NCBI GenBank assembly: GCA_030141605.1
Contig: JAQGDQ010000042.1
Coordinates: forward strand, 496,001 to 560,000
DNA length: 64,000 nucleotides
Source: Tubiluchus corallicola
Lineage: Eukaryota; Animalia; Priapulida
Reading direction: 5' to 3'
Position numbers and translations under genes: made by a program. The notes under the pieces are model-generated. The model made no database searches, had not been told where the DNA came from, and was given only the letters and a program-made list of their open reading frames with translations. Position 1 is the stretch's first letter. Every line of letters begins with the position of its first letter. This document shows, one piece after another, positions 11,182-37,970 of the stretch.

Positions 11182-13988
11182 ATGACGTTAATTAACGTGC
11201 ATCGATATATATTCTTCGTTGCAGTTGTTACTGGTACGAGAGTTTTTATATCTTTCGGTTGTGTGCATGCGCTCAGATCCAGGAAGTTTTATAATCAAAA
11301 AAACAGTTTGTGTATACATCTCATAAATCTAGGCGTGGTTTCAGGCGCTTATAGCATTCTCTTCAAGAATATGAGATTATAGGACCTAACTAACGTTTCA
11401 CTTGAAGAGATTTTATGGAGCCGACTGACCTGTTTATAGGATCTAATTTATAGTACTGTAATAATAAATCCACTTAACTCATTTCATACAGTGGCTTAGT
11501 TGTTAGTGTGCATATAACATAGTGGTCATATGCATATAAGCATGTAGTGGGAGTAATGTGATCAATTGTTTCACGTTTGTCATTTTTTGGCAGTTATACT
11601 GGGTACACGATTAACACAAAATTGCAAGTTCTGGCTATATGATAATTATAATACAATCTAATTGTTTACATACTTTTTATACTTGTTTCAGTTGTTGTAA
11701 GCCAGCAATATGGCGTCCGAGATCAAGGCACCTTGTTTGGTCGAAGAACTCGCTGTTATGCTTGTGGTTCAAGTGAAATGACAAGCTCAAAATGTGGAAA
11801 ACGTGAAATTCCCACTGGTATTCCTTGCTGTGCTGATCCATTCAACCGTTCAAGTATAGTAGCAGCACTCAGAGAGGGAAGCAAGACAGGAGATGTTGGA
11901 TCTGAAGGCATAGAGGAGGAATGTGATTATTGTCTGAAGGTCAGATATACTTGGAGGTGTAAGTACTGTGATTCGCTGATCAAAACCATTCTCTCTTCTC
12001 TTTGTATTAAAAAATATACTAGATTCTGTTGACTCAGTGTTGATTTTAGATGACAGTGACACTAATGCTATAGACTGTACTAATAACAGTGTGATATTAT
12101 GCATAACATGGTGACATCTGTTGACAAGAGCTTAAAAAGCAGTATAAGTTAGTGCCCGTTAATAAGATAATTAAAAATTATAGATCTGACATCTTTACAT
12201 CTAATGCAATGAATAATGCATCATCTAATGTACTGGCCCAAATCAATATCAGTGGGAACTGGATAGAAGATACAGGTGTGTCTTCTGCTTTTATGTTATA
12301 CACATAGAATTCGTAAATCGTTGGATTATCAATAAGACTTGTAAAAGTCCTATTATACACAAAGATTGCTTTGTTGTATGGAGAACAATGTTTTTAGCTC
12401 TTTTGTTTTGTTGAGTAAGAATTATTTTTTGGCATTATGTAACTATAACTTCTAAATTGATGAATTTGATATTTCTCCAACATGTCCAACATTGCACAAA
12501 TTGAAACTTCCCTGTTGAGCATTGAAGTTTAAGAACTTGTTTTATCCAGTGCAAGCCTTGTCATCTGTAATCCTTCCACGGTGTCAGTTTACATAATTAT
12601 ATATATTTTTGAAATGGTTGTTTCATCATTTACTGCACTTGAAATTTCTTTCTAACTGATGATTTCTTTTTCACTATGTGACTTTCTATTGCTACTTCAC
12701 CAACTTGAAGTTGCACACAAGGAAGTTAAGACTGGTGAAAAATAATATATATAACCAATAGTGTCTCTGATGTTTTAACTTTTAAATGAAATGTTTTTAC
12801 TGTTGAATATTTAACTTTTAAAGAAATGTTTTTACTATTGAATATAGATCTCTAGCAACATTGAGTAAGCCAGAGCAAATATTTTCATTTTTGTTGTAGT
12901 CAACTTAACCAGTCTTTTTGGACCAAAGTGTATTCATAAATGACTGACATGAACTTTCATTCGCAATTTGTCATACTGCACATAAAGTACTGTCAATGTC
13001 AACTTTTGTAATTATTTCGTCAAATCTGCACTGTAGATTCTTTTACTATTTTAATTGCATTGTGATATTTATGTTACAGACTGATGAAAATTTTATACAC
13101 TAATCTTTTTAATGGTTCTCTGTTAATTTTTAGGGAGACGTCCTGATGTGTTTGTAAGAAGATTATGTTACAATAGCCGCTTACAAACATCGGTAAAAAC
13201 TATAGAAGGGATTCTCAATGTTAGATACAATGCGGACAAGTGGTGGCCGTAAGTAAAGTACTAATACCTACTACCTATTAATGTTGGTGGTTCCATGAAT
13301 CTGCAAAGTTATCAAAGACGATCAGTGCAGGCAGATGTAACTGTGGTACTGATTGTTTTATGTTGATGTACCTGGATTTCTATCTAGTAGAAATATCGAA
13401 ATACAGTACACCATTATGTGTGTTACTGAACTACTTTATTTGCAATGCGTTCTGAGGCATTAATAAATAACACTGATAACTTTTTAACAAGTGAGAATTA
13501 GTACCTAAATTAAACACCAGCATAAATCCTAGAGTATGTTTGATTCTTCTATTGTGTGGGAAATCCTCATTTTCAGCTCATCAGTCTGTAGTATCACATG
13601 ACCATTTCAAAAAAAATGAGTCAGCATCTCATTGACATCTCTTGGCCAAGTACTATGTTTCGAATACCTATCACTAGTAGCAGAGCTAGAGAAGGCTTAC
13701 TCTGCATAGTCCAAAAGTAGGATTAATCACACGTACTGTACCTAAATAAAGTATCTTGTTTACAGTGATACAAGCAGAGAAGACAGATGGAAATCGGATC
13801 GGTTGAGAAGAGATAAAGATGCATTAGAAGCAGGCAAGTGTTTGAAAAAACGCGAGGAAACAGCCAGTCATGATTTGTACATCGAAATATGCTCATGTTT
13901 TGGAGATTTGTGTAACATAGCTGTTCATTGCAGGATTTCACTTATTGTTATGGTTGCGTCCCTCTGCATTACTTTCTTCAGATTGTAA
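11182..13988 (+). CDS. Ly6/uPAR three-finger, quiver/sleepless-like GPI-anchored protein, paralogue B (4 coding exons, about 218 aa)
   Basis: Exons 11182-11233, 11692-11958, 13134-13248, 13766-13988, GT-AG, phases 1,1,2 (same as paralogue A). Signal peptide; CYAC..C..CCADPF..CDYCLK..RLCY..C..ICSCFGDLCN; hydrophobic C-terminal tail. Confidence 0.88.
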
Positions 13989-20400: not shown

Positions 20401-23400
20401 AGTAAGCAGAGTTGCAAGCACCCTCGTTCTTAGTTTGGTGCCCTACCCAACGATTGACAACTTTTGAAAGGCATTAGTTATATGATGATGTTGGTGGAGC
20501 TAAATGCACTATTCGATACACAATCGTGAACAATGCACTAAGTTAGCTGGCTGGCTGGAGACTGGTATGGTACAGTTGAGGTTACGGAGCTTTGGTTGCC
20601 AGTTTTGTCCATGGTAAGAGTAGTCCATGAGAATGGCGGGATGCTAAATCAATTGCTCCACTTGGGGAAAATTTCGGTTGTGAATTTTATGCCGTTACAG
20701 CCATGAACTCAGAAAAATGAAATTTATAAATGTAAGACTGTTTATCATGACATAGAAATGCAAAAGATATCAAGTTGCTTGTTTACTTGTAAGTGCAAGT
20801 ATTGAAATAATCTATTTTGGAAAAATTTATTTTAATTTAGTCTAAAAATTAAAAACGGTAATGCATCATTTTACGTAATATAACTAAACACGCACTACGA
20901 AATCCAAACATGCAAATTTGCTAACTAAAACTTACAAGAACAATAACTTCATGCATATGCCTTGATTCTTCGGGATGTAAAAAGTCTGTAAACTCTTGTC
21001 TAGAAAGGCCACCATCTTTGTTTATATCAGCTTGATCCCATCGTCTCTTGTCTCTAGCCAACATCTCCACAAACCGCGTGCCTTCTTCATCATCTAAACA
21101 AGTAAATAACAATGACGAACAAATATGAAACTTCGAACACATTGCTCAAATGATTTTTACCTAGGGATTAAATGATTTCATCAAAGAAATAATACTCAAA
21201 GCAAAAGGCCGACCTAAAATAAAAACTTCTGTTCAACCCCCTACATATTTTTAAAAAATTCTTACGCAAATCACTGTAACAGACTCACTTACCAGTCTCG
21301 GGGCGGTCACCATAAGTGATCTTTTTAAAATCATCCCAAGTTATAAACGCCGTGTCAGACTTGCCGCCGTAATATGACCACTGATTCTCAACATCATCAA
21401 CTACATATCTTTGTTGAAAAGAAACAAACAGGAATTATTAATTATAACACTTCTGCTGCATAATAATCTTCTCATTGTTTCTGCTACGACACACAAAAAA
21501 CATGAAATGATTTTCCACATTTCAATCTTAATACACTGTCAGAAAATTTGATTAGATTTTTAACATTGAAGAAGCTCAAATATACTCACTTTTTATGAAC
21601 TGTTCTTATCCAGTCAACAAGTTCCTCCTCGGTGATGATGTCATCACCATTAACATCTACTTTGTCCATAATGGCTCTAAAATATTCATGATTTAATTTT
21701 TGGAGGTATGTGCTAATGAATGTTTACTTGTAATTATAAAACAAATGACACAAAGACTATATAAAGGATAACATTTAAGATTTCACTATATACATACTAG
21801 CATGACTTTATTACTTTATTCCCTGGTTTTCACCTGCTTCTTACTCCTCAGTCATAAGCCATTTCCATTGGAGAGAGGGTAACTATAGTCTTAAGTATGA
21901 TTTAAATACAGTCTAAAGTCACTAGTAGCGATCATACAAATCTAGTTGCTATACATAAGAACACTAAGACTAGTGACAATTGACAACATCTCTCATTATG
22001 ATCATGCATGTTTTTTGGATGCACCAAGAAACAACAACCTACTTTTCTGAAATATGTCAGACTCAACTGACAATATTTCCAGCACTTATCTTTGACTTTT
22101 AAAGGGGAATGGAAGTGCACCTGTTAACCCAGCTAAAGCTTTATTTTATCACAAGTAGTTAAATTAGTTGGTTTTTTGTTGCAAAAGCAGCTTGCTTCAC
22201 ATCACCTTCATTTTCACCTGGCATGATGTCACTGGTGTCACTGCAGCAAGATTAAGAAGTGTGTTGCAAAATAAACAGTGGCTAATATACAGCATTTACA
22301 GACAGACAGATTTATCTATTAGCCATTTTAATCTAGTTGTGGTGGTTTAACTTATATATGAATGGATTTAGGTAGGGTCTATGTGGAGACATTCAAACCT
22401 GTAGATGCCCAAAACAGGGAGATTTAGCTACAGATCTAATCAGGGCTGGATTATGACCTTATGGGGTCCTAGACTAATAAAATTATGAGGCCCCCTCAGA
22501 CGAAGCTGCCCGCTAAAAAATGACTCATTCGCACCCATTTTAAATATTTTTTACTTGCGATGTATTTTAGCGACATTTATACACCTTGAAGTAAACTTAC
22601 CGCACATTTTTTAAATAAACTAAAACAGCTATCTTTTGTTCGTCAATAAAAATATTCTTTAAGAAATACCACTGTTTTACTAATGCAAACCAAATTAGCA
22701 CATATTTCAATATAAATTTTTAACCAAATGTTACCAAAGCTTGAGGGGCCCCCAAGATTGAGGGGTCCTAGGCTGTACCAATAAACTAGCCTATTGGATA
22801 ATCCGGCCTGGGTCTAATCGAGATGAGTGCTGTAAATTCCCATAGAGCGTTTTTGCATCTCTAGAATTTTTAAATATCTGTTTTAATACCAAATCTGTCA
22901 GTAGAAATGGTTTTCAGACAGCACTTTTTAACTCTTTTCAAGACATACTTTAAACAAATGGTCCTCACATTTTCAGACACTTGGGAAAACTTTGGCATTT
23001 GGGCAGAAGAAAGGTTACCTTAAACCTTTAAACCAAAATGTTGCACATAAGTATGTTTAATAATTAGGTATTACAATGGCAACTAAGCACAACCCCCACC
23101 CATATTCTATGTGCTGAGTACCCAGATGATTTTTTTCATGTTGTCTAGATGGTAGATGGACGATCCTACTTTGTGCAAAGTGAAGCATGTTCTACCTCAA
23201 TGTGATCCCATTTTGTGAGATGTTTATGTTGAGTTAACAGTTGGTGGAAAACGGAAAGTAATATTTCAAAATTTGGAGAATTGGAATGTCTATATGTCAA
23301 GTTTTTTGTCATACAAAATTTGCGACTGATCAATGTCTATATTCCCCAATACCATAACCTAATTATAAACAATAATAGGTTCAAAAATTCATTGATGGTT

Positions 23401-25118
23401 TGTAAGCCTCATGCCTCTTCAGCAATTCAGTGTTTCGTCACTAATGGTGACCTTACCATTTTGCCGTGTACAATGTAGGCCTATTTTAAAATTTATTGGG
23501 ATTTAATGTGTTGATTTATGGCTTCGTATCATAATTATGCGGGCGTAGCCTTACACAGCAGTTAAGAACAAATCAGATACTACTTTGAAAAGCTATTACA
23601 TTCTATGCAGTACAATTTGCAAATTTGTTGAAATGTGAAATTGCAGTAGCCATAAATAATTTGTTCAAACAAATATGTTTAAATTTTGCAAGCTGATATT
23701 TCATTTAATAAAAATTTTATTTCTTGACTATATTCATTTGCATAAGTGGTACATGCTACCAAACAACATTATCAAGCCATGATAGTGTCAAAACTCTACA
23801 CGACCAACATCTACAAGAAAGCAGGGGTTTCAAGAGACTGCTCACAAGAGTAACACTTGCTCTACAATACGTACACCATAGGTACAAATATAGAATTTTC
23901 TCTTGCTGATAACTGGCATCAACTTTGTAAAGCAAATCAATGTTCCTGGTGATTCGTGTCATCAATGACACAAACGGTGGTGTGCACTTACAACTTAGTT
24001 TAAATTCAATGAAATCCACACATTTTATTTTCAATGTAAGAACGTTAATTTAAAGTGTAACCATTCCCCATTAAGAATGCACAAAACTAGTTGTGCAAAC
24101 TAGAATTTATGGATTTAACATTTTACACATAACAGGCAACCATGCTGTATAAGTGTTTACCTTAACCTCTCCAGCACTTCAGCTTGAGGCAAATCTCTAA
24201 AGGTCTCAGCCTCATCTGGTCCCAAAAATGCATCTGCATCATAGTCTGGGTTGTGCTCTCCATGTTCATAGTGCTGTTTGTCACTAAACTAGAAATGAAT
24301 AAAAAGCCATAGATTTTTACATTGTAATCTGGCATTGTTGTACAGTGCTTGTCTACTCCAGAGATCTTGGGTTTAAATCCCATTCACACATGGATTTTTT
24401 GAGTCCTTCTTCACTTGCACAGGATTCTCTGACCACCTTTCCAGATCTACACAGCATTAACTAAATAAGTACTGGAGAAAGAAAGGTAGCCAAGTGATGA
24501 GGTAGCATACAGATATCAGCCTGTACACCTCATGTGTGTACTAAGGTTATAGACACAAGCTTTACAAAATTGACTAAGTAAAAACATGATTCAAACAGAA
24601 GAATAAACTGTTGTTTCTTAACTAAAAAATAAACAATAAAAAGTTGACTGAGACTGTGCATGCATAAACTGGCAAAGACAAAGCCTTCAGTGTATGTATG
24701 AGCTGCTTAGCCAAAGACAGTAGCACATTTTATGTTTAATTAGGATACCTTTCAATTTAGATAAGAATAATCAGTTTCTGATTAATCATTCAGAGCAGAT
24801 CTCATAGAAAAAACTAAGTACAACGTAACAACACACAACATGTAATGTCATATGCAAAGAGATGACCTTGCCATAGCCCCCACCATAAACAACATTAACA
24901 GATTTATCACACTATATTAAAAAAAACGAGATGATACTAGTCATGATTTGCAGTTGAAAAAATATCCTACATATAAAAAAGAGTGTGCTACAATACTGTC
25001 GAAAATTACTCTATAAATATATACATAATAAATAGTAAAGAAATACCTGACCACCAATGTCTGAGACTACACCTGAAACCACAAGGCAAAGCAGTACGAC
25101 GACAGAGAGGAACTTCAT
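17479..25118 (-). CDS. CALU: Calumenin/reticulocalbin (CREC family) multi-EF-hand ER calcium-binding protein (8 coding exons, about 307 aa)
   Basis: Exons 25118-25047, 24288-24161, 21676-21590, 21408-21293, 21093-20936, 20001-19941, 19061-18859, 17577-17479, all phase-consistent. Signal peptide MKFLSVVVLLCLVVSG; HNPDYDADAFLG; EF loops DVNGDDIITEEE, DINKDGGLSRQE, DLDGDGYLSREE, DVDGDGKMSPAE; FLHPEE; FLGSQVTNWG; C-terminal HEEL. Probably co-orthologous to CALU/RCN1/RCN3. Confidence 0.95.
19198..19897. mobile_element. hAT-type MITE in a calumenin intron
   Basis: TIRs CAGAGATGGG / CCCATCTCTG, sub-terminal ATCCGC repeats at both ends, degraded TSD (5/8). Confidence 0.75.
22441..22810. mobile_element. 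hAT-type MITE in a calumenin intron
   Basis: TIRs CAGGGCTGGATTAT / ATAATCCGGCCTG, GGGCCCC sub-terminal motifs, TSD GATCTAAT/GGTCTAAT (7/8). Confidence 0.8.
24325..24565 (+). mobile_element. Degenerate tRNA-derived SINE-like sequence
   Basis: B-box-like GGGTTTAAATCCC followed by a SINE-core-like body; heavily decayed. Confidence 0.35.
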
Positions 25119-26372
25119 TTTCAAAACCTTTTTTGGTTAATTCTTTATTGATGAATGTATGCTGAAAATCAAGAAGAAGGTTAAGCTGGCCAGCACAACG
25201 GGTTTGCAAGTGCACTTGTATAGAAAATTGAATTTGTTTAAGACAGAAACGTTTTGCGCATGTATGGAATATTAACCAATATAAAAATAATTTGGTCACC
25301 TGTAGATGACTGCTTGTGTGCAGTGAAAACATGACTATAATAAAATTCGCTGATAAGGCGGGATCTGTATCAAACTAATGTCGTTCTTACTGCACGAACG
25401 TTTAAAAACGCACTCATGCTACCAATAATTCAGTCGACGTCAAAAATATTATAGTTCCTAATTCCACCAACAATACCTTATACAAGGGCTCGTATTTCTA
25501 TTTTCTATCCACTTTTACATTTATCCCAGTTACAGCACAAAAATCAAAGGTGCACAATAAAAAATCGAAAGTGCACTGCAAAAGTTCATATTTATATACA
25601 TAGCACAGGTATTAATCATAAATAATTAATCGAAGCAACGATAACTTACGCAATAAAACTGTGATTTAACGTTAAAAATGACAGGTTCAAACACTGAGTA
25701 GGAACTTAGTTTACATACCACGATTGCAATCAAAACCTCAAAATCGAAAGCCACAGAAACCACGAAAGATCAGCATCGAAAAAACAACAGACACGTTCTA
25801 GCCACCAGCCTGGAAGTGCTGACGTGTACTTACTGTACTAATGGCCAAGTTAATGCAACAGCTTGGCAACGCAATAGGTGAATGACTTTTCTGCTAAATA
25901 ATTAGCCATTAGCGTACCGGAACTAGTATTTCTACCAGAAATCTCGGACTTTTTAGCGAAACCAGCCAGTGAAGCAGGGGACGGCTGCAAGTGCCATCCA
26001 GGGCTGCCAATAATTGTATGAATGATGCTGATTAATCGCATTGGAGACTAAAAATTATCGTACTTTCCCCAAATCCGGGATTATACATGTTTGCAAGCAA
26101 ATTATTACTGTTGCAGAATTTTGCACTTGTTAATTAATTGTAACACCAAAAACTGGCACTAACAAGTGTTAAACTAAATTTATCAAAACAAAATAAATGC
26201 TGCTCATTTCTGCATGTGCAGAATCAAGCCTTATCATTGTCATCATGAACACTCTTTTTTAAAAATACTGCCTTTTTTCAGAAAACTGTAACCATTAACT
26301 GTGATCCCAGGATGATTCGGTCTAGAATGAAGTTTAATCAGAATTTTCCAGTGGGCAATGCGCATATTCATG

Positions 26373-26763
26373 TAGGGGTGAGCATTCCCTGCCTGAAAGC
26401 GAATTCGAATCGAATTTCTGACATTCAAACCGAATTTCGGTATTATGAATCCGAATCGAGTTCGAATACAGTTGTCAATATTTTTGAATAAAGGAAAATA
26501 ATTTTCGAATATCATATTAATTAAGAAATGGTTTCACAAAGACCATGCATATTACACGAATTTATTCTGCAGTAATTTAAAACATTAATAATAAAATTAA
26601 TATTTGTTTAAATATTGTGTGCAGAAGTCACAGCTAAATTGTGTCGATTGCTTGCTGTTTTAAACGTTTTAATAATAAAGAATGCATGTATTTGAAGTGC
26701 TGAACTAAAAAACTCATTCGAATCGAATTCGAACTCAAATCGAATGTTCGATGCTCACCCATA
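26373..26763. mobile_element. hAT-type MITE with TTCGAA sub-terminal repeats
   Basis: Ends TAGGGGTGAGCAT / ATGCTCACCCATA, with clustered GAATTCGAATCGAA motifs at both ends. No TSD recognised. Confidence 0.7.
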
Positions 26764-26782
26764 ACAAACAATAGCGTAGCAG

Positions 26783-27317
26783 ATGTACAGTTCAAACCTC
26801 ACAAAAGTTTTTGAGAAAAGGAAGATTTCTTTGGAAACAAAAATTAGAATATTCTCAGCCTTAGTTGAAACTGTATTTCTGTATAACTCTGAGCTCTCGA
26901 CAATAAAAGCAAAGCATAAAGCTGAAATTGATGCGTTTCAAAGGCAAAATTACAGAAACGTTTCGGGTACTAGATGTCCAAACATAATTTCAAACAAAGA
27001 TCTCTATGAAAAAATAAAAGAAGAACCTTGGACAAGAAAAATAAAAAGACGCCGTCTAAGATGGATTGGGCATATGCTTAGACTACCTGATGATATTTCA
27101 GTGAAGATAGCTCTTGAGCAAGCCATAGAACCAGCGAAAAAACCTGCAGGAGGACAAATGTTAACATATTTAGATTTTGCACAGAAAGATTTAAACACTT
27201 CAGCATTGATCCTTAGAAATAAATGCCCTTGGGGCACTGCGCGAGCAGGGAGTCCTGGCATAGGGAGGTGAGCAGAATCATGTCCCTGGACGTATGAGTC
27301 ATTGGATGATGATGATG
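26783..27317 (+). mobile_element. 5'-truncated RTE-like LINE (RT C-terminal fragment)
   Basis: ORF motifs TKIRIFSALVETVFLYNSE, IDAFQR, ISNKDLY and IKRRRLRWIGHMLRLP, followed by a (GAT)n tail. Confidence 0.85.
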
Positions 27318-27588
27318 TAAAGTTCAAAAGAGTACCCATGTTGTAGTTGAATGTTGTGCAGTAGCGAGAAAGTGAGTTATTTCGTTTTATTGTTCATATT
27401 TTTCAATTATTACTATTTACATTTGTATTTTAATAGACGTAAGTAGTAAAAGACCAAAATGATATTTCTAGGCGAAGATAAAGTGCTCTTAGATTGCGAT
27501 TCTATGCTGATCAAGTATGAGTCACAGATAGTTTGATGTCGTACTGTCGGCGAATAGATGTTAAGCGAGTACACACACAGAAACAGTC

Positions 27589-30312
27589 CGGTGGCGGCTC
27601 ATGCATAAGCACTGCGGAACTGCAGCACCCCTTATTTCACTAGATATTATCGATAACATTTAATTACTATTTTTTACTTCTTTCTTCATACTTGTTCATT
27701 AAGGCTTAAGCTTAATGTCTGTAGCCATCCCCTACTACTAGTACTAGTTTATAAAAAATTACAAAAATCCTTGTATGGAATTGTGCCCTTCACAGATCCA
27801 GTGATGTGAGAGATAAGAAGCTGCACACTAAGTAGAGAGAGAACGCTGTCGCTCCTGTAGTACTTGGCCCTGTTGTGCAAGTGTAAGGTAGTGTCTCTGT
27901 TTGACTCAGTGTGTGTTGTGCATCATGTTCTTGAATGTGATAAAGAGTAGAATTACATGATTATCATGCTTCCAGCTATTCTGTTTAATTCATAGTTTTT
28001 TCACTTATTTTATTTACAGAAAATTTAAATAATTTAACCATGGCATCCTTGCATCTCCAAGAAATAAGTCCTGTGACTGTAAGTGAACTTCAACAACTTA
28101 AGTTTTCACAGTTGCCTCTCCATGAGAAAGTTACAGTTAAAAAAAGAGGCCGTTCAACACCTGATATTCGAATATCTCAACCAGGAATAAGCAACAACAA
28201 GAAGTATATTCGTAGCTTTAATTCTGGGTGGTACCAACGGAAAACTTGGCTTTGTGGCTGTAAAGTAACAAATGCGTTGTATTGCTTCCCATGTTTGATG
28301 TTTGGAGGTGATGTGACATGGACAAAAGACGGTTTTAGATGTCTAAACAAAATAAAAGAAAAAACTGAAAGACATGAGAAGTCACAGAAGCACATTAATA
28401 ATGTGGTTTCTTTGTCACTTTTAGGAAACGTAAATATTAATGAGAAACTTAGTGACACATACAGACTTTCAATCATTGAGCATAACATGAAGGTTAAAAA
28501 GAATCGTGAAATTTTATCCAAAATAATAGACTGTATTTTCTTTTGTGGAAACTTTGAATTTGAAACTACCTTATGCGGACATGATGGAAAAGACGATTCA
28601 GTAAATCCAGGAGTATTTAGAGGACTAATAAATTTTGCATCTAAATTAGATCCAGATTTGAAGAGTCATTTAGAGACCAGTACGGTCTTCAAAGATGTTT
28701 CTAACACCATTCAGAATGAGATACTTGACTGCCTGCTACAAATATACTATGAGGAGATAAGGACGGAAATTAGAGAAGCTTCCTTTGTAGCTGTCATGGC
28801 TGATGACACAACAGATGTGTCGGAACACACTCAAATGATCATTGTTCTACGGTACGTGTTGCACGGAGAAATAATTGAGCGGTTTTTGGGATTCTTTATT
28901 CCAGAAAATCAAACTATAGATGGCATATCAAAATGTATTCTAGAACAATTAGACATAATCCTTCAAGGAAATGGACAAAAACTGATAGCTCAGACATTTG
29001 ATGGTGCAAATGTCATGAAAGGCAAAAAAGCAGGAGTTCAAGCAAAAATAAAAGCAGTTTATAGTAATGCACATTTCATTCACTGTTATGCACATCAACT
29101 CAATTTAATAATGAGAAATGCAGCAAGTATTACACGGAATGCTAGAATATTTTTCTCTAACATTTTGGCTATTCCAATATTCTTCTCAAAATCACCGCAA
29201 CGTGTATCCATCCTCAAGAAACATATGGATGCTAGAATTCCATGTCCATCTTCTACAAGACGGAACTTTGACATACAGACCGTAAAGGGAGTTAATGAAA
29301 ATTTGCAACCTTTAAAAAGCTGCCTTACTGAAATTCAGTCAACAACAAATGCAGATGATACCATTGCAGAAGCAACAGGAATTTTAAACTACTTGAATGA
29401 TGATAATTTCATGTTTTGGTTGGAGCTTTTTCATCAGATTATGCCTCATGTTGAAGTAATTTACAACCAAATGCAATCTCGAAAAATCAATGTGTTTAAA
29501 GTCTATGAATATGTAACAGATTTCGAAACTGCTATTTTAGAAATAAGAAACTCAAAGTACTGTGAGAATCCTTCAAAGACAATCATGGCAGAAGCTAAGG
29601 AAGTGTGTGACTGTATATGTGTTGATATAATGCACAGATATTCTTTCACTAAACACTTAGTAGCTGCTAAATTGTTCAACAAGAAAAGCTTCACTAGTTT
29701 TAAGAATGAATTGCCTAAAGAAGAGATAGCGCTGACCACTGAAGCATTTCCCATGATTGACAAAGAAAAGCTTGAAACTGAACTAAAAGTATTCTATTGT
29801 AGATCTGATATGCATGAATATTGCAACTTAATTGAGCTGCTGAAATTTATCTTAGAAAATAATCTATATGATGTTCTTAGTGAAATTATGAAACTGATAA
29901 AAATCCTTTTGACAATGCCCATGACGACATCAGATCCAAAACGCTGTTTCTCAACACTGAAACGAATAAAAACTTTTCTAAGGAGCACTAAGAATCCTGA
30001 AAGACTAAACGCACTTGCAGTGACTTCAATGGAGAAAAACTTTCTGAACGGTCATCCAGAGATCAAGGAGAAAATTATTAATGTTTTTGCACAAAGTAGA
30101 ACAAGAATGGATTTTGTTTTTAAATGAATGGATCAAGCTTGAACTGTAACAATTTAGGCTGTTAGTAAGTAAAACATATTTTTTGTTTAGGATTTTATCA
30201 AGTTTTTGTATATATTTTCTCTTTATATGTTTGTTTTGTTTTACACAATATTAAAACAATGGTTAAAAATTTTCTGAAGACCCACAGTAATTTTAGCTAC
30301 GAGCCGCCACTG
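27589..30312 (+). mobile_element. Full-length hAT (Tip100/ZMYM1-like) element
   Basis: Imperfect TIRs CGGTGGCGGCTC (27589) / GAGCCGCCACTG (ends 30312). Flanking 8-mers AAACAGTC and CGTGTTTT do not match. Contains a 695-aa transposase ORF. Confidence 0.85.
28040..30127 (+). CDS. hAT transposase-derived protein (TTF-type zinc finger, DUF4371-like region, RNase H fold, hAT dimerisation domain); predicted catalytically inactive
   Basis: Uninterrupted 695-aa ORF with YCFPCLMF..HEKSQKH, ADDTTD, FDGANVM, HCYAHQLNL and RCFSTLKRIKTFLRST. The expected TRW reads TRR and the expected ERxFS reads KRCFS. Splice acceptor at 28019 and ACCATGG start context. Confidence 0.9.
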   Translation: MASLHLQEISPVTVSELQQLKFSQLPLHEKVTVKKRGRSTPDIRISQPGISNNKKYIRSFNSGWYQRKTWLCGCKVTNALYCFPCLMFGGDVTWTKDGFRCLNKIKEKTERHEKSQKHINNVVSLSLLGNVNINEKLSDTYRLSIIEHNMKVKKNREILSKIIDCIFFCGNFEFETTLCGHDGKDDSVNPGVFRGLINFASKLDPDLKSHLETSTVFKDVSNTIQNEILDCLLQIYYEEIRTEIREASFVAVMADDTTDVSEHTQMIIVLRYVLHGEIIERFLGFFIPENQTIDGISKCILEQLDIILQGNGQKLIAQTFDGANVMKGKKAGVQAKIKAVYSNAHFIHCYAHQLNLIMRNAASITRNARIFFSNILAIPIFFSKSPQRVSILKKHMDARIPCPSSTRRNFDIQTVKGVNENLQPLKSCLTEIQSTTNADDTIAEATGILNYLNDDNFMFWLELFHQIMPHVEVIYNQMQSRKINVFKVYEYVTDFETAILEIRNSKYCENPSKTIMAEAKEVCDCICVDIMHRYSFTKHLVAAKLFNKKSFTSFKNELPKEEIALTTEAFPMIDKEKLETELKVFYCRSDMHEYCNLIELLKFILENNLYDVLSEIMKLIKILLTMPMTTSDPKRCFSTLKRIKTFLRSTKNPERLNALAVTSMEKNFLNGHPEIKEKIINVFAQSRTRMDFVFK

Positions 30313-30379
30313 CGTGTTTTGAATTTTAAGTCATTATTGCTTTTTACTAGGAAATGTAACTAGTGCTCAAAATAATCTG

Positions 30380-33300
30380 ATGACTTGGACAAGACTGGTA
30401 AACACTGTATGGAAGGCTGGCACAGTTGGTTTATGCATTATGCAGTATGGATGCATTGCACACTGTGCTCTTGAATATGGTGCTGATTTTGTTATTGTAA
30501 GTTATACTTTAGTTATCGTTATAGTAGTCCAGCAGAAAACTTATAAAAGGCATTTAACTCTGGACTCACTTTTCTTAGAAATAATTCAAATTAGAACTGT
30601 GGTTGTAGTTTGGTGAACTCAGAGGCTTTTGTAAATGAAAACATAAATTTCCAAATGGTCATGAAAACAACTTGTATAATCAACAAATAGCAAAGGTTAA
30701 GCAGCAGTGGATTAAGGGCAACATCTTATTAGTGTAAAGGTGGGAGAGAAGCTAAAAAAACGCTTAATCTATTTCTAACCTGAATTTTGTACATGATGTA
30801 TATATGTTTGTTGGGTTGGTTTACTTTTGTTCTTTACACTATATTTACTTTTCTGCAGTGCAATATGTAGGACCTATGTAAATTGTTCTGATATGATGTC
30901 AGTTATTTTGGATTATAATTTTATTTTTGTACATGTACGTGTTCTGTACTGTTGTACTGATGTGAAAATAAATTGCAGATAAAAAATGGACCTTTCTGGT
31001 ATTCAAGACTGATTTTGCACTTCTATTGTGAGCTACCAAATATGGTCCCACTTTTGGAAATATCTGAGCTTGGACTTGTAAATGTTTTCTTGTGTTTTTA
31101 TTTAATCATTTTTGTTTGGTTTTTATTTAGTGTACAGGTCCATCTATGGAACCCACTATCAAGTCACACGACATTGTACTTACGGAACATCTAACCATCC
31201 TGCTTAACAGAACAAAACGGTAAAGTTTTTATTTTTGCTTAGTTAGATGCCAAAAAGCATTTTTTTCTGTCTGAAAGTTGCTACAAATTTGGTATTATAT
31301 TCAAGGGCACAGCCAGCTTCTAAAGTTAGGGGTTCTAAAACACAGGGAAGTACATAATTGGTTATGTTGTATTTCAAATTAGAACACAAAAGTTTTACAC
31401 TAAGCTCTTAAATCTCAATACATAATAAAAATATGTGTGTATTGCTTATTATTATTCATTTTGCATCATTACATACAGATACAGCACATATATTCATATA
31501 CACAAAATATAACAAGGAAAAGTTAGTATAAGCACGTGCAATATAGAAAGAAATTACTATGCATAAAATAGACAATTTTTAAGAATGACAATGTACATAT
31601 CGTACATAAAAATATCATTAGTTTTCATACATCCTTCATAGATAATCTCGTAAACACACATTAAAAGCATTAATAACAGGCTTTTTGACATTCATGTTAT
31701 GAAATCTTAAAGATAAACCATATTTTCTTCTTAAGTGACAATCGTTAGTTAATTGAATATTGTTGATCCTTTTTTCTTCCCCTTCTTCTTTGTGAATTTT
31801 CTTTAAAAAATTTTATTTTCTATAATCAATTAGAAAGTTTGCAGGCATAGTACCGCAATAATTCATTAAAACCTTGACACTCATTACATCTATAATTGAA
31901 AATATTCTTATAGGCTGTGTTTCAGGCAATTTAGGCAACATCTCCTTGCTAGAGTTGACTATATCGAGTTCAACGATGCATAAAATTTGTTTTTATTTAT
32001 AGCAATGTTCGCTTTAAAAATTTTATCTGATTTTATATCAGTTCCTAAGTATTTGACTTTCTCCTTTCAAATCAGTGTTTTGCCACAAAAAATTATTTTA
32101 CCAACACCAAGAACCTGGATTACCTATATATAACAAACCAAGTTTTACTGGGATTAAATGTAATAGACCAATCCTGGCCATACATTTCACAGATTTTCAA
32201 CATTTTTTTAAGATGATTATTTGAACCAGCCGTTAGGGCAATATAACTGGAGTACATGACTGATCCCACAAAAAGTTTTACCAACATGACACCCCAAACC
32301 TAATACGCGCTGTTGCTTTGTTAGATCATCCGAGTAAATTGCATGCAAAACAGGGGACAATGTGCCTCCTTACTTAATGATACGAAATTCAGAACTAAAT
32401 TTGCTGTCACACTATACAACAGCTTTTGCTTTGTTATACCAATTGATCAGTATTCTAATAGAACATTGAGGTACATTCTTTTCCAGCCATTTTAAATACA
32501 ATCCATCTTGCAGTACTTTATCAAAAGCTTTTGATGCATCTAAGAAGGTCATACAGACAGGATTATTTTTCTGGGTGAAAATGACACATACTATTTCTTT
32601 AATACTATAAATGGCGTGTGAACAACTGGCATTGCTTTTATATCCGAAAGGAAGCTGATTACTTCAGAGATACTGTCCAAACTTCATTAAAAACACTGTT
32701 TCATACAATTTTGAGATTACTGGAGACAGAGTTACTGCACGGTAGTTATCAAAATTTGTAAAATCACCTTGATTATTTTTTATTACAGGTGAAATTATGC
32801 CTTTGCCAAAGTCATTAGGTGCATAACCATGAATAAGCATAACGTTAAATAACAATGTCAGATACAATGCTGAAACATACAATGCTGAACAAAAAATTCA
32901 ACCAATGCTTGTTGATTTCTCGAAATTCTGTGCCGTTCTACATTCAAATCTCCAACAATTAAAAATTTTGCAAGTATTATGTACCACCCTTATAACATCT
33001 ATTAATGTTAGCACCTCTTCAAATAGGTACGCATTTTCTTCATTCTAATCGTCATCATTAAGACATGTACACAGTTACCTCTATTACATCCCCTATACTT
33101 TACTGCTAAGCATCGCTAATTATTAGTTTTAACAATTTCTACACACCTTATTCTCGCCAACATGGAACCTTCGATCTTCGATTGCAGTATGTAGCACTCA
33201 TCCAACTCTACGTCATTCTCCATTAGATGTTCTATGATGTCGTATTTAGTTGTGTTTTCACTTAACCTGCTGACAAAGAACTCTACCACCCGTCTTCTTG

Positions 33301-36300
33301 GTGGCCGTTGTTTTCCCATTATGTCAAAGTCGCTTCCAGATTTCCTGCTACCTGTAACAGCTGAAATTTTCTTTCGTTTTAAATTTTAGCCAGTGTCCAT
33401 TTTTCTGAGTATTCGGTAGCTGCTTCTGAGATTTGCTGCTACCTTTATTTCATTGGTTTGACGATGTTTCAGCTGTTATTAAAGTAGACTTGGTTGAATC
33501 CTCAACACTGCCTTGAGGAGCCTCGTTATAGCTAGTGAATCTGGGAAACGCTCCAAGTGAATACTTGGTTGGTGGTCTGCTCTTTCTTGCCCTTTTCAAT
33601 TTTCTTGCTGAAAGTTGAGACTGTTTCTTTCAGTGCCTTTAGTTCATAGCTAAGCACATTTATATCAACTTCTTGCGGTGTTGCTAGTGGGACACATTTA
33701 AGATCACCTGCCACAAATATCACCGCCGGCATGTCTAAGCTTCTGTCTATGTACTCGTAAAGTTTCAAAATATCTTTAACTTCCAGTCTCTGTTTGCTTT
33801 CTTCCTGCCTGTGCATGATTTTTTGTAACCATTTTTCACCTGATCTATTTATCTCCTAAGCACGACTAAGCGTAGTTATATAGAACTGCTTTAGCCATCT
33901 CTAATTCTGAATCTTTGAAAAGTCAAGCATTATGGACTTGTATGGCAGGCTGCCGAACTTGTTTTGCACAAACCGCAAGTATTTGTTTATGCAAACATCC
34001 TCTTTGTTTACCTGGCTGCTATAATAGGAACCCATTATTGGACGCTATTAACGTACTCTGCCCATAGACAATATACTAGTGCCGTGCGTAGACCGGTTTT
34101 TCCCTCCAATCTTCTCTTCTTATAGTCTTTACTGTATCTAGAAATTTAAATTTTCACTAATACCTTCTTTCACAAATTTAATAATTTGAGTAATTAATAA
34201 ATTAATTCTTTTAATTTTAAACTTAAAATGAAAACAAAATAAAGCATTGCGAAAAATGTTCCATGAAGGAACTACAACAATCTCTTTCATCTAGGTTTCA
34301 TCTTAGCAAAGTAATCTATAGTTATATTAAATCCTCCCCAGTAGCTAATTCTCTTTCAATGGAGACCAAAGCGAACCCAGACAACCTATCCTTGTACATT
34401 GTAGACCAAAGATAGGACTTTATCTGTTTCAACCCGCAAAATGATCATTCAGTAATCGCACAAGTGAACTAAATAATTAAAAAAATGCTGAAAAGGCGCC
34501 AATTTCGAAAAAAACGTGCTAGGGGTGTGGTTGCTTCCCTTGCTCCCATTAGTTACGCCGCTGATTATATTAGTGCATAATTATAAATTATCTAGTTCAA
34601 AGCAAGTGTAGGATACTTCCTTTATGTATTATACCATAATAGTTAACAAAATTTAAATAATTTCAGTTATTGTTAAATGGTAAATAAGCAACACGGCTAA
34701 TTAAAACAAATGAAGCCATGTCAGGTGAACAGAGGACAAGCTAATTGAGAAACTTCATATGAGTGCTGCTGTTTTACAGGTGTAGGTCTTCTCAGTCCAA
34801 AACTGGATTTTTGAAGCCATGTTGTAGTCAAACAACTGCCAAACAACTTAAATTCTTGTGAAAGTGGCATCTGCCTAAGTGGTTCAACCTTAAATCACAT
34901 GGGCCACTTGGGGTTTGCACAGTATTATTTATGTCTAGCACTGTACTAACGCAACGTTATAATTGTTGAGATTTGTTTTTTAGTGGTGATGTGGTCATAG
35001 CTAAGTCACCCAGTAATCCTCGGCAGTATGTTTGCAAACGAGTCGTAGCTATGGAAGGGCAAAGAGTTACCAAGAGCTACTTTAATACTGAATTGGTAAG
35101 ATTAAATTCTGTGCTCAGTCACAAATATGTTGAAAATGTCACAAAAGGTATTACTGCTAATTGTTGTGTAAAAATGCAACTCTGGCCTTTATTCAATATG
35201 TTTCATTTGCTGCTGATCTGAGAAACATGACAGCTATTCAACTGGCAGTTAAATGAAACCCGGGTACAAGTACAAATTTCACCAAATAACTCTAACTTAT
35301 CAAGGTTCTAACTATGCCATCTATAAAGGGAATGGTAAATTTAGAATTCAGCTATAGCAAAAATTACATCACAATTACAAAACTGCGGTGCCTAAATACA
35401 TGATGTAATCAACACTGTGTAATTCATTTTGTGATTGTCTCTGCTATTTAGGTACCAAAGGGTCATGTGTGGTTGGAAGGAGATAACAAGCATAACTCCA
35501 CAGACTCCAGAGAATATGGTGCCGTGCCTAGAGGTCTTCTAAGAGGAAGGGTTATATGGAAGGTACATAAAGACAAATAAAATTTTATTTGTTCGCTTAA
35601 CATTATATAGTTTACATGAAGATTTTGATACATAAAACAGTAGCACTGTAAGCACATTGTTCTACCAACAGTATAATAATAAAGAATTATGTAGCAGAAA
35701 CTTCAAAATAATAGAAGTTACTATTTTAAAGGCTGTTTCATTTGTTTGGTTTCTCAGGCAGACACTTTTAAATATATGCAGAGAAGTATATTTAGTAGTC
35801 CCTGTTTCGGGCTGAATCTCAGCCAACTTTTATTATCGTACTTAGTCTCATTGGTTTGTCATGAAGTCCTAACTCTTGGTTTGAAGAACACACTGAGGTG
35901 GATAGACTGACAATGCTAAATGTTGCACAATATTGGAATTTTTGACACCCATGTTTGAAGGAATGAAGTACTTAATGAACTAATAAAAGGAAGCTTAAAT
36001 ATTAACTATGGCCAGCTTGTAGCAAATTATCTAATAGATACGTTTACTAGCTGGCTGCTTTGTTGATTGGCTAGCAGATATTTTCTCTGAGAATTCAAAA
36101 TTGCTGTATTTGGATTTATAGATCTAGTTATCTAGTTTTTTTAACTATTTAAATGTACTAATGTATCTGTGTGCTTGTTTTACTTAATAACTAAAAAATA
36201 AAGTTTCTAATGTCAAAATTGGTGTGAAGTGTTTTCTCAAAGGACATATGTAATATCATAGCTTGTTCTAGCATCTGATGCTTGGGGCATTAAAAATTGT

Positions 36301-37031
36301 TATCATCATCATCATCAGTATGTACCTTATTATTAGTCTTTGGCGGCTTGTATATAGGTACAGCAGCACCCCTATTTCCACTCAATATTATTGATAATAT
36401 TCAATATAAGCCTTTTCCTTTAGTTCTTTCCTTATACTTGCATGGAGCCAGAGCATGTGAGGGTAGTACTGTTTTGCCTCACAGCTCAGCACTGTGGTGT
36501 GTTTGGCTGAGATGAAATGCTCTATGCTGCACTGCTTGCATCAGCTGTTAGGTAGAGAAAGTACTGTTGCTCACACAGTTTGTTGTTAGTTGTCACTTGC
36601 TTAAAAACCGTGTACCGGAATACTCTTGAACTGCGGCAATTTAGGCTATTTGTAAGCAAAAAATTTTTTGGTTTAGGAGTTTACCAAGTTTGTGTATAAA
36701 TTCTCGGATGTTTATTTGTTTAAAATTACAATTACAAATTATAACATTAAAATTACATGTTTGTTTCGTCTTGCGCAGTATAACAATACTAAACAATTGC
36801 TAAATAATTGATATTAAACAATGGCTAAAAATTTTCTAAAGCAGCAACTCCACTTATTTTAATTATTGGCCGCCACTGTTATTACTATCATTGCCTTGTC
36901 ACAGACATCATAATTATAAATGTGTATTATTGAATTGCTGTAAAACATTTTGATTTGCTTATTTTGTGTTTTTGTAGGTCTGGCCACTTGAGGATTTCGG
37001 TGCTATGAAAAGCACCAGCAAAGTTTCTTGA
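30380..37031 (+). CDS. IMMP1L: Mitochondrial inner membrane protease subunit 1 (S26 peptidase; 5 coding exons, about 160 aa)
   Basis: Exons 30380-30496, 31131-31219, 34984-35095, 35452-35562, 36978-37031. QYGCIAHCALEY, CTGPSMEPT (catalytic Ser), GDVVIAKSP, CKRV (catalytic Lys), VPKGHVWLEGDN..NSTDSREYG, VWPLEDFG. An acceptor at 30350 implies an upstream non-coding exon. Confidence 0.96.
31302..34563. mobile_element. hAT-type MITE split by a LINE insertion (IMMP1L intron)
   Basis: Perfect 8-bp TSD ATTATATT (31294-31301, 34564-34571); degenerate TIRs CAAGGGCACAGCC / AGTTACGCCGCTG. Confidence 0.7.
31445..34250 (-). mobile_element. Decayed non-LTR retrotransposon (RTEX/CR1-like) with ORF1 and RT remnants, apparently internally deleted
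   Basis: ORF1 remnants at 33116-34036 (FVQNKFG, FVAGDLKCVP, FFVSRLSENT). RT remnants at 31900-32900 (NYRAVTLSPVISKLYE, FLDASKAFDKV, GGTLSPVL, VKYLG). (TAA)n tail near 31445; many stops and frameshifts. Confidence 0.85.
36338..36878 (+). mobile_element. Non-autonomous derivative of the 27589-30312 hAT family (IMMP1L last intron)
   Basis: 5' end (TGGCGGCT..GCAGCACCCCT.ATTT) and 3' end (AATTTAGGCT..; AACAATGG.TAAAAATTTTCT..GCCGCCACTG) match the ends of the large element. TSD TTATTAGT/TTATTACT (7/8). Confidence 0.85.
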
Positions 37032-37970
37032 CATCAGAAATGGATTTAAGGAAACTGTAGTCTTCATTTTTCGTGACAAATTCTTTTACTCATTGCAAAC
37101 AGCAAAGCACAAATTGCATATGTTGCTTGTGACTAAAATATTATTATCATTAGTACTACTTGTTTTCCCCCATAGCTTTGACCTTGTATCTCTTTGTCAC
37201 AAATGTCATTGTTGTGAATGGAAAAGAACACTTTCGATCCTCATTCATCAAGTGCTTTGTGAATGTATATGCAGAATTCAGGATTTGAATGTAGTGAACT
37301 ATAACAAAATGCATATTGGTAAAAAAACCCAGATGTGTGCTTCAGTCTTTCTGAATAAATCAATAAAGCGAATATTTTACATTTATAACAAAAGGTTTGT
37401 CTTTCCTAATTATTACAATAATCTGTTATGGTTTCTTGAATTGTGATTAGGGCTTGAAAGTAAGATAGTGCTTTTCTGAGACTTGTCTCTTGACTTCTTT
37501 TACGATTGTAATTAGGGCTGTTTGGATATAAATAATAGTAATGACCAAAATTGACGATGTCCAATTATCCGGGACGGGATGTACCGATGCTCATTTGATC
37601 TGGTGTCCAATTTTGCTGTAGCGTATTGTCTTGGGGCCAGATTCACTAAAGTTCTTACTAACAATTTTTTTCCTAAGTTTGTGCATATGAACTTTTTAGC
37701 ACTACTCAAGGACTCACTAAGCCAATTTTTGTAAAAATCTTCTTCTTAAATTTGTTCGTAACTTTATGCAAGGATTAGAGCTTGCGTAAGTGCAGTTGAA
37801 CACATTGTGCATGGCTCATATGGCTGACATTTTTGTGGAAGAGGAAAGGTTAATAAAATGCACAGAAAATATATTTTTTGCAATAGATTAGAATTAGACC
37901 TTTCAAAATAAAGTGAAATTCGAACTGTAGTCCACACAGCAGACCAGCAAGCCTGCATCTTTCTCCTCTA

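What the first reader, a model, noticed from the sequence alone, without database searches (positions are those of the whole stretch)
27589..30350. Candidate domesticated, catalytically dead hAT transposase in the 5' region of IMMP1L
Seen in the sequence: a 2088-bp ORF with no stop or frameshift, while nearly every other long element in the window is fragmented. Key motifs are altered: the catalytic Glu of ERxFS is Lys (AAA, 29939-29941), the Trp of the RW motif is Arg (CGG, 29261-29263), and LRGHDE reads LCGHDG. TIRs are imperfect and there is no TSD. The zinc finger, HCxAH and dimerisation region are retained. A polypyrimidine-CAG acceptor (28019) and an ACCATGG start precede the ORF. Established: hAT DDE enzymes need this Glu and Trp, and ZBED6 and PGBD3 are precedents for intron-hosted domesticated transposases. 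Inference: an old, immobile insertion kept as a DNA-binding host protein.
Basis: partly seen in the sequence, partly recalled or inferred. Interest (0 to 1): 0.78.

Follow-up and report, generated by a model that had tools for sequence, protein, structure and literature searches.

The report
Dead hAT transposase upstream of IMMP1L
A cut-and-paste transposon, from a family likely spread horizontally among invertebrates, sits just before a mitochondrial housekeeping gene with an unbroken reading frame but without its catalytic glutamate; it is likely a decaying copy whose frame has so far survived, although early recruitment as a host DNA-binding protein remains possible.

Summary
Observation confirmed: 2,088-bp ORF, Glu634→Lys, Trp408→Arg, LRGHDE→LCGHDG, one TIR mismatch, no TSD, 37 bp before the acceptor-like site of IMMP1L's first coding exon. 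It is a hAT transposase. Relatives 77-89% identical occur in insects, crustaceans, spiders and a snail, while host calumenin is 45% from its nearest named match, so horizontal spread is likely. The same organism holds a ~12%-diverged gapped long copy and many internally deleted copies. Domestication is unproven. Against: 60 of 634 residues differ from the family, spread over all domains, at rates like those of 50 short relatives, and a second sample differs more in the ORF than in its flanks (5/1539 vs 0/1699). For: an open frame is unlikely without selection (about 0.15-4%), both indels are in frame, and sampled changes lean synonymous (12:9, p=0.07). Best reading: dead copy, frame surviving (0.55); young domestication 0.35. 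The scan noted two similar intron-hosted dead hATs in other genomes.

The parts
27589..30312 (+). Full-length hAT element, 2,724 bp, no target-site duplication
   Evidence: TIR positions; loose ends of other copies pile at 27591 and 30312 (table 7); no TSD
27589..27600 (+). Left TIR, one mismatch (second base) to the family 12-mer
   Evidence: table 7
27995..28019 (+). Pyrimidine tract and CAG, acceptor-like, 20 bp before the ATG; use not shown; region also present in other copies
   Evidence: sequence; covered in runs X6, X7 (tables 2, 4)
28040..30127 (+). Transposase ORF, 695 aa: zinc-finger residues, DUF4371, RNase H-like core with Asp255 and Asp321, CxxH, insertion domain, hAT dimerisation region
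28553..28564 (+). 6-bp tandem duplication, in frame, specific to this copy
   Evidence: sequence; two-residue insertion absent from the 19 aligned relatives that were compared where they cover it
29261..29263 (+). Arg408 in place of the family Trp (RW motif)
   Evidence: shared by run X3
29939..29941 (+). Lys634 in place of the catalytic Glu; neighbour Glu632 is Asp
   Evidence: other copies in X1, X3, X6, X7 read G at 29939 (table 3)
30100..30105 (+). 3-bp in-frame deletion near the C terminus, specific to this copy
   Evidence: table 4
30301..30312 (-). Right TIR, exact match to the family 12-mer
30340..30496 (+). IMMP1L acceptor-like site (AG 30349-30350) and first coding exon (ATG 30380; donor after 30496)
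   Evidence: X24 contig covers 30392-30496 and splices to 31131
31131..31219 (+). IMMP1L coding exon 2
34984..35095 (+). IMMP1L coding exon 3
   Evidence: Peptidase_S26; X24 loose end matches its start
35452..35562 (+). IMMP1L coding exon 4
   Evidence: Peptidase_S26
36338..36878 (+). 541-bp non-autonomous derivative (MITE) of the same family in the last IMMP1L intron, 8-bp TSD with 7 of 8 matches
   Evidence: 76% and 81% identity to the element's two ends; TSD
36978..37040 (+). IMMP1L last coding exon (start; end approximate)
   Evidence: translation

Best explanation
This is an immobile, catalytically dead copy of a hAT DNA transposon, likely acquired by horizontal transfer, that sits just upstream of IMMP1L's first coding exon and is likely decaying without a host function, its reading frame having so far escaped stops and frameshifts. 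Shown: hAT fold and domains, Glu634→Lys, no TSD, related deleted copies and a gapped ~12%-diverged long copy in the same organism. Inferred: part of its divergence arose while the lineage was still an active element (synonymous and conservative changes); after insertion roughly 50-60 further substitutions hit it at random, including the catalytic Glu. The transposase once mobilised itself and its MITEs in trans. A transcript from the calumenin/IMMP1L intergenic promoter region would normally splice over it to the acceptor at 30350.
For: Family context: relatives at 77-89% identity in a planthopper, carpenter bees, a termite, mantis shrimp, prawn, lobster, woodlouse, spiders and a snail form a poorly resolved star with this copy as a 0.11 terminal branch (quick tree), whereas a 96% proxy of the host calumenin is 45% identical to the nearest named protein. 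Pattern of change: 6/121 highly conserved, 14/194 medium and 40/319 variable sites differ, indistinguishable from 50 short relatives pooled, 82/1497, 213/2460, 550/3868 (Fisher p=1.0 and 0.45), and far from intact-motif relatives P0004/P0006/P0007 (2-3 of 132 at conserved sites). Replacements are no more conservative than those of the short relatives (p=0.39). Changes fall in every domain: 17/148, 8/75, 5/103, 19/190, 11/118. Run X3 differs at 5 of 1,539 ORF bases and 0 of 1,699 flanking bases (p=0.024); of the 2 sites listed, one changes conserved Ala200 to Thr and one is silent. Several other open-framed relatives lost other motifs, so motif loss in an open frame is common in this clade.
Against: An open frame is improbable without selection: mean 4% if only the conserved-site rate reflects the neutral phase, 1.2% using conserved plus medium sites, 0.15% if the whole branch is neutral (indel rate inferred from gap counts of the gapped copy). 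Both indels are in frame. Sampled changes are 12 replacement to 9 silent against 74% replacement expected (p=0.07; 10:8 for those private to this copy, p=0.07), while the in-genome copy shows 7:1. Conserved sites changed less than variable ones (p=0.022) and replacements are more conservative than random base changes (p=0.012). DNA transposons are reported to evolve neutrally within a genome (PMC7070016 passages), so the silent excess needs either a second invasion or host selection. Sense orientation next to a housekeeping gene start is where a recruited copy would be expected.
Confidence: 0.55

Rival explanations
1. A young domesticated gene: a transcript from the host promoter region splices into the element's acceptor (28019) or retains the intron, and produces a cleavage-dead but DNA-binding, dimerising protein. 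It would bind the ends of the family's many MITEs and act as a repressor of the family or as a transcription regulator, as proposed for CSB-PGBD3 and MER85. Expression, binding and selection are all inferred.
For: Open 695-codon frame with survival chance about 0.15-4%; two in-frame indels and no frameshift; silent-leaning sample 12:9; of the 6 changes at highly conserved sites two hit the active site and three are conservative; zinc ligands, CxxH and dimerisation region intact and the model folds confidently (pLDDT 91); insertion present in two samples (X1, X3); abundant deleted derivatives as potential binding sites (tables 5, 7); precedents PGBD3 and ZBED6.
Against: Site-class rates and conservativeness equal those of short relatives; changes occur in the DNA-binding part too; ORF variation between samples is not lower than in flanks; the finding was picked because its frame is open, among an unknown number of long transposon copies in the genome; a confident model built on 139 homologs does not test this copy's stability.
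Confidence: 0.35
2. The copy was for a time the family's source gene, transcribed from the host promoter region, and lost catalysis only recently; the frame is open simply because little neutral time has passed since.
For: Silent-leaning and conservative changes fit long function followed by late loss; location beside a housekeeping gene start would supply germline transcription.
Against: 20 changes at conserved or medium sites, including the RW Trp, LRGHDE and the catalytic Glu, imply many separate hits; no near-identical daughter copies in X1 (table 8); TSD unrecognisable and left TIR changed.
Confidence: 0.08
3. The protein is still an active or helper transposase.
For: Asp255, Asp321 and CxxH are intact; the RW Trp is dispensable for cleavage in Kat1.
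Against: Lys replaces the third catalytic acid, which is Glu in 117 of 120 homologs; mutating the DDE residues, including the Glu, abolished Kat1 activity (PMC4763223 passages).
Confidence: 0.02

Closest known systems
hAT superfamily DNA transposons, 'ZMYM1-like' DUF4371 + Dimer_Tnp_hAT transposases (nearest named: Lycorma delicatula P0002 81%, Cryptotermes P0016 84% partial, Oratosquilla P0014 79% partial)
   Same: Domain set, 12-bp TIRs, 2.7-kb size, 8-bp TSD on the sister MITE, internal-deletion derivatives.
   Different: This copy lacks the catalytic Glu, the RW Trp and a TSD.
Hermes transposase (PDB 4D1Q, 6DWW, 8SJD, 2BW3)
   Same: Best Foldseek matches, E 6e-9 to 2e-7, probability 1.0; DDE core with CxxH and insertion domain.
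   Different: 13-17% identity, TM-score about 0.33; a residue-level match of Trp408 and Glu634 to Hermes W319 and E572 was not computed and rests on motif position (W319 is named in PMC4763223; E572 is recalled).
PGBD3 / CSB-PGBD3 with MER85 (PMC2268245, passages)
   Same: Transposase ORF with its own upstream acceptor inside a host gene, a changed catalytic acid, decayed long copies and hundreds of MITEs of the same family.
   Different: PGBD3 is piggyBac, fused to CSB exons, conserved at least 43 My and more conserved than flanking DNA, and expressed; none of this is shown here, and no fusion partner is predicted because the element lies before the IMMP1L start codon.
ZBED6 in intron 1 of ZC3H11A (PMC5834713, passages)
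   Same: Intronless transposon-derived ORF near the 5' end of a host gene, same strand.
   Different: ZBED6 is conserved across placental mammals with a known target and phenotype; this copy is about 10% from active-type relatives and has no shown orthologue, transcript or target.

Membership tests
hAT superfamily | Short TIRs (10-25 bp) and 2.5-5 kb length | tested here: met
   12-bp TIRs, 1 mismatch, 2,724 bp; definition from PMC3942097 passages
hAT superfamily | 8-bp target-site duplication | tested here: not met
   None for this copy; met by the sister MITE at 36338-36878 (7 of 8)
hAT superfamily | hAT C-terminal dimerisation region and Hermes-like fold | tested here: met
   PF05699 27.1 bits, cut-off 21.4; Foldseek to Hermes
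Active hAT transposase | DDE triad | tested here: not met
   Asp255 and Asp321 present, Glu634 is Lys
Active hAT transposase | CxxH motif and RW tryptophan | tested here: not met
   CxxH intact; Trp408 is Arg
Tip (Tip100) group of hAT | Groups with Tip100, BuT2, RP-hAT1 in a transposase tree | not tested
   No named Tip references were among the rows; the Tip100 label is recalled from the DUF4371 architecture
Domesticated transposase gene (ZBED6/PGBD3 type) | Fixed, syntenic orthologue across species | tested here: inconclusive
   Same insertion in run X3, whose species is not given; no protein at 90% identity or more; no genome held
Domesticated transposase gene (ZBED6/PGBD3 type) | Purifying selection after immobilisation | tested here: inconclusive
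   Open frame and 12:9 sample favour it; site-class pattern equals short relatives; X3 variation not reduced
Domesticated transposase gene (ZBED6/PGBD3 type) | Expression of the ORF | tested here: inconclusive
   Only one probable RNA run of the same species label could be laid, as contigs
Domesticated transposase gene (ZBED6/PGBD3 type) | Lies in a host intron and uses the host promoter | tested here: inconclusive
   Acceptor-like site at 30350 implies an upstream exon; candidate donors at 27372 and 26015; no joint across the element seen
Domesticated transposase gene (ZBED6/PGBD3 type) | Sequence-specific DNA binding and host phenotype | not testable with these tools
   Needs binding assays and knockdown

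The most novel reading that the evidence does not exclude
A domestication caught early: a horizontally acquired hAT, only about 10% diverged from its mobile relatives in other phyla, is expressed by exon trapping from the calumenin/IMMP1L promoter region as a cleavage-dead protein that binds the family's many MITE ends, a PGBD3/MER85-like repressor or regulator that arose independently in an invertebrate. Other open-framed, motif-dead members of the clade (planthopper, two carpenter bees, P0009) would be parallel recruitments from the same invasion wave.
Probability: 0.35. Interest if true: 0.6.

Novelty: new member of a known kind. Interest (0 to 1): 0.3.

Why it matters
As a dead copy it is ordinary, though it records a hAT family that likely crossed phyla recently and left many MITEs. 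If the frame is selected, it offers a rare young case for testing whether transposase domestication starts as dominant-negative repression of the element's own MITEs. Mobile-type relatives at 84-86% identity and a decayed in-genome copy supply natural controls, and one RNA-seq set plus one sister genome would settle it.

Tried and rejected
No whole genome is held, so copies were not counted directly; summed contig depth is not a copy number. Expression: run X24 (RNA is a guess; same species label; 6 differences in 192 exon bases) holds a spliced IMMP1L contig at depth 80 but nothing laid on the ORF at 90% likeness; lack of cover is not counted as evidence. The first 27 bases of that contig match nothing in the window (best 19 of 27, elsewhere), so the upstream exon was not located. 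Run X23 gave only repeat pieces and no unique cover, so it tests nothing about the insertion site. Runs X6 and X7 (organisms B, C) hold many ~85% copies but little or no cover of the IMMP1L flank; synteny is neither shown nor excluded. Protein searches found no hit at 90% identity or more (best full-length 81%, best fragment 89%); the species may simply be unannotated. Fused, longer forms of the transposase were not searched. The metagenome scan gave 1 locus from 19 candidates, L001 at 69%, too distant to polarise silent sites and not used. A sequence search of the PDB found no transposase; the fold search did. A broad Pfam scan of the window's other short frames failed and was rerun on only 10 proteins. 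The tree is the quick version; the careful search did not finish. Literature: 'IMMP1L + transposase' gave 4 papers, none about this by title or abstract start; 'hAT + horizontal transfer + Cryptotermes + crustacean + transposase' gave 1 unrelated paper; two searches for Hermes residue names gave 0. No supplements were read.

Full report
Observation. The ORF runs from ATG 28040 to TGA 30127 (2,088 bp, 695 aa). It is the longest of 14 stop-to-stop frames of 120 aa or more in the window; the next longest are reverse-transcriptase-type fragments of 307 aa or less. Codon 634 is AAA, codon 408 is CGG, and residues 178-183 read LCGHDG. The two catalytic Asp, the CxxH motif and the zinc-finger Cys/His are present. 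The element spans 27589-30312, with a 12-bp TIR that is exact on the right and has one mismatch on the left, and no TSD. The right end lies 37 bp before an acceptor-like AG at 30349-30350 that precedes the IMMP1L start codon at 30380. IMMP1L is confirmed by Peptidase_S26 hits and by a contig spliced from 30496 to 31131. A calumenin-type gene lies on the opposite strand upstream.

What it is. Pfam gives DUF4371 and the hAT dimerisation region above their cut-offs. The AlphaFold model (pLDDT 91) matches Hermes transposase best. Relatives at 77-89% identity come from a planthopper, two carpenter bees, a termite, mantis shrimp, prawn, lobster, woodlouse, spiders and a pond snail. A quick tree of 33 rows shows them as a poorly resolved star, with this copy as a terminal branch of 0.11. 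A protein 96% identical to the neighbouring calumenin exon is only 45% identical to the nearest named calumenin. The transposase is therefore far closer to those of other phyla than a housekeeping gene is, which points to horizontal spread (inference). Other agents' notes call the host priapulid-like; I did not test this.

Copies in the host. In run X1, which matches the window exactly and may be its source, the coding core carries an identical contig and a second contig differing at 190 of about 1,563 bases (12%) with gaps; these three pieces may not be one copy, and a third copy shows near 29917-29950 (tables 3, 8). The other copies keep the Glu634 codon. The ends are covered far more deeply. 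Eight of the 15 listed joints skip 2.0-2.4 kb of the interior, and 75 and 46 contigs run off into different flanks at the two ends (tables 5, 7). So the family left a few long copies and many deleted derivatives. One such derivative, 541 bp with a 7-of-8 TSD, sits in the last IMMP1L intron.

Selection, results for. With the mutation spectrum, the chance of no stop falls from 0.19 at 40 substitutions to 0.0065 at 125. Adding a frameshift rate inferred from the gapped copy (at least 5 events per ~95 substitutions, my reading of gap counts) gives a joint chance of 4%, 1.2% or 0.15%, depending on how much of the branch is treated as neutral. Both indels specific to this copy are in frame. Of the 33 variant rows listed inside the ORF (40 shown of 1,168, chosen by the tool for support), 21 are changes on this copy's side: 12 replacement and 9 silent, against 74% replacement expected (p=0.07). 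Eleven rows belong to other copies or to X3, and one is ambiguous. Restricting to changes not shared with the in-genome copy gives 10:8 (p=0.07); that copy shows 7:1, a difference that is not significant (p=0.20). Conserved sites changed less than variable sites (p=0.022), and replacements are more conservative than random (p=0.012). DNA transposons are reported to evolve neutrally within genomes and under purifying selection during transfer (PMC7070016, passages), so a real silent excess would need a second invasion or host selection.

Selection, results against. 60 of 634 scorable residues differ from the majority of 58 close relatives: 6/121 conserved, 14/194 medium, 40/319 variable (61 sites not scorable). 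Fifty short relatives, which I take to be mostly broken or cut-off copies, give 5.5%, 8.7% and 14.2%, not different from this copy, and their replacements are as conservative (p=0.39). Intact-motif relatives change only 2-3 of 132 conserved sites. The changes are spread over all five regions, including the zinc-finger part. No relative shares many of this copy's derived residues (at most 4 of 37), so no orthologue is on hand. Run X3 carries the same insertion and differs at 5 of 1,539 ORF bases and 0 of 1,699 flanking bases in the listed pieces (p=0.024); only 2 of the 5 are named, Ala200Thr at a conserved site and one silent. This is a small sample of low-depth contigs. Finally the finding was chosen for its open frame out of an unknown number of long copies genome-wide, so a 1-4% event is not decisive.

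Mechanism. Most likely (0.55): an active hAT lineage entered the host, mobilised itself and its MITEs, and one copy landed before IMMP1L's first coding exon. A host transcript would splice past it to 30350, and random changes have since removed the catalytic Glu without yet breaking the frame. Rival (0.35): splicing into 28019 or intron retention expresses a dead enzyme that still binds ends and dimerises, and the host keeps it weakly as a repressor or regulator at MITE sites. Minor rivals are a recently silenced source gene (0.08) and residual activity (0.02). That the element lies in a 5'-UTR intron is inferred from the acceptor-like site; candidate donors at 27372 and 26015 are untested, and the 5' end of the X24 contig matches neither.

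Comparison with known cases. It is a hAT by TIRs, size, domains and fold, but fails the tests for an active enzyme (DDE, RW) and for a TSD. Tip-group membership is recalled, not tested. It resembles PGBD3 (own acceptor, altered catalytic acid, MITE family; PMC2268245, passages) and ZBED6 (intronless ORF in a first intron; PMC5834713, passages), but cross-species conservation and expression, which define those genes, are not shown. The Kat1 paper (PMC4763223, passages) supports the need for the Glu but shows the Trp can be dispensable. hAT definitions come from PMC3942097 (passages). Other papers were seen only as search listings. The scan has noted two comparable intron-hosted dead hATs in other genomes, so the pattern recurs; a look-up by sequence and one near this place found nothing.

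Verdict. A real feature, correctly described. It is a new member of a known kind under either reading. Interest 0.3; 0.6 if selection and expression are shown.

Noticed in passing
window 36338-36878: 541-bp MITE of the same hAT family in the last IMMP1L intron, about 100 bp before the last exon, with a 7-of-8 TSD; two insertions of one family in one small gene.
   Followed up: partly
window ~20900-25800 (minus strand): Calumenin/reticulocalbin-type gene divergent from IMMP1L, with a CpG-richer stretch at 25000-27000 between them; RCN1 and IMMP1L also lie in one region in vertebrates (recalled), possibly an old linkage.
   Followed up: partly
P0003, P0005 (Xylocopa), P0002 (Lycorma), P0008, P0009: Several long open-framed members of this clade lost different motifs; P0009 has 16 of 133 conserved sites changed and small in-frame insertions in an open frame, and the Lycorma model has a host-like N-terminal extension. 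Possible repeated recruitment, or gene-model artefacts.
   Followed up: no
window 30392 (run X24): The IMMP1L contig begins with 27 bases that match nothing in the window and replace the predicted start codon region: a different 5' exon, a divergent lineage or a chimera.
   Followed up: partly
window 26780-27317: 3' fragment of a high-copy LINE with a GAT-repeat tail, ending 270 bp before the hAT left end (RTE-like label recalled).
   Followed up: no
window 51562-52008: About 450-bp palindromic element (83% self-complementary), likely another MITE; inverted-repeat elements also at about 26375-26760 and 58251-58436.
   Followed up: no
window 11652-12029 (+): Exon-like frame encoding a signal peptide and a cysteine-rich stretch (Ly6/quiver-like by recall); no Pfam hit.
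   Followed up: no
window 30354-30359: Start-stop uORF (ATG TAA) in the predicted IMMP1L leader, 26 bases before the start codon.
   Followed up: no
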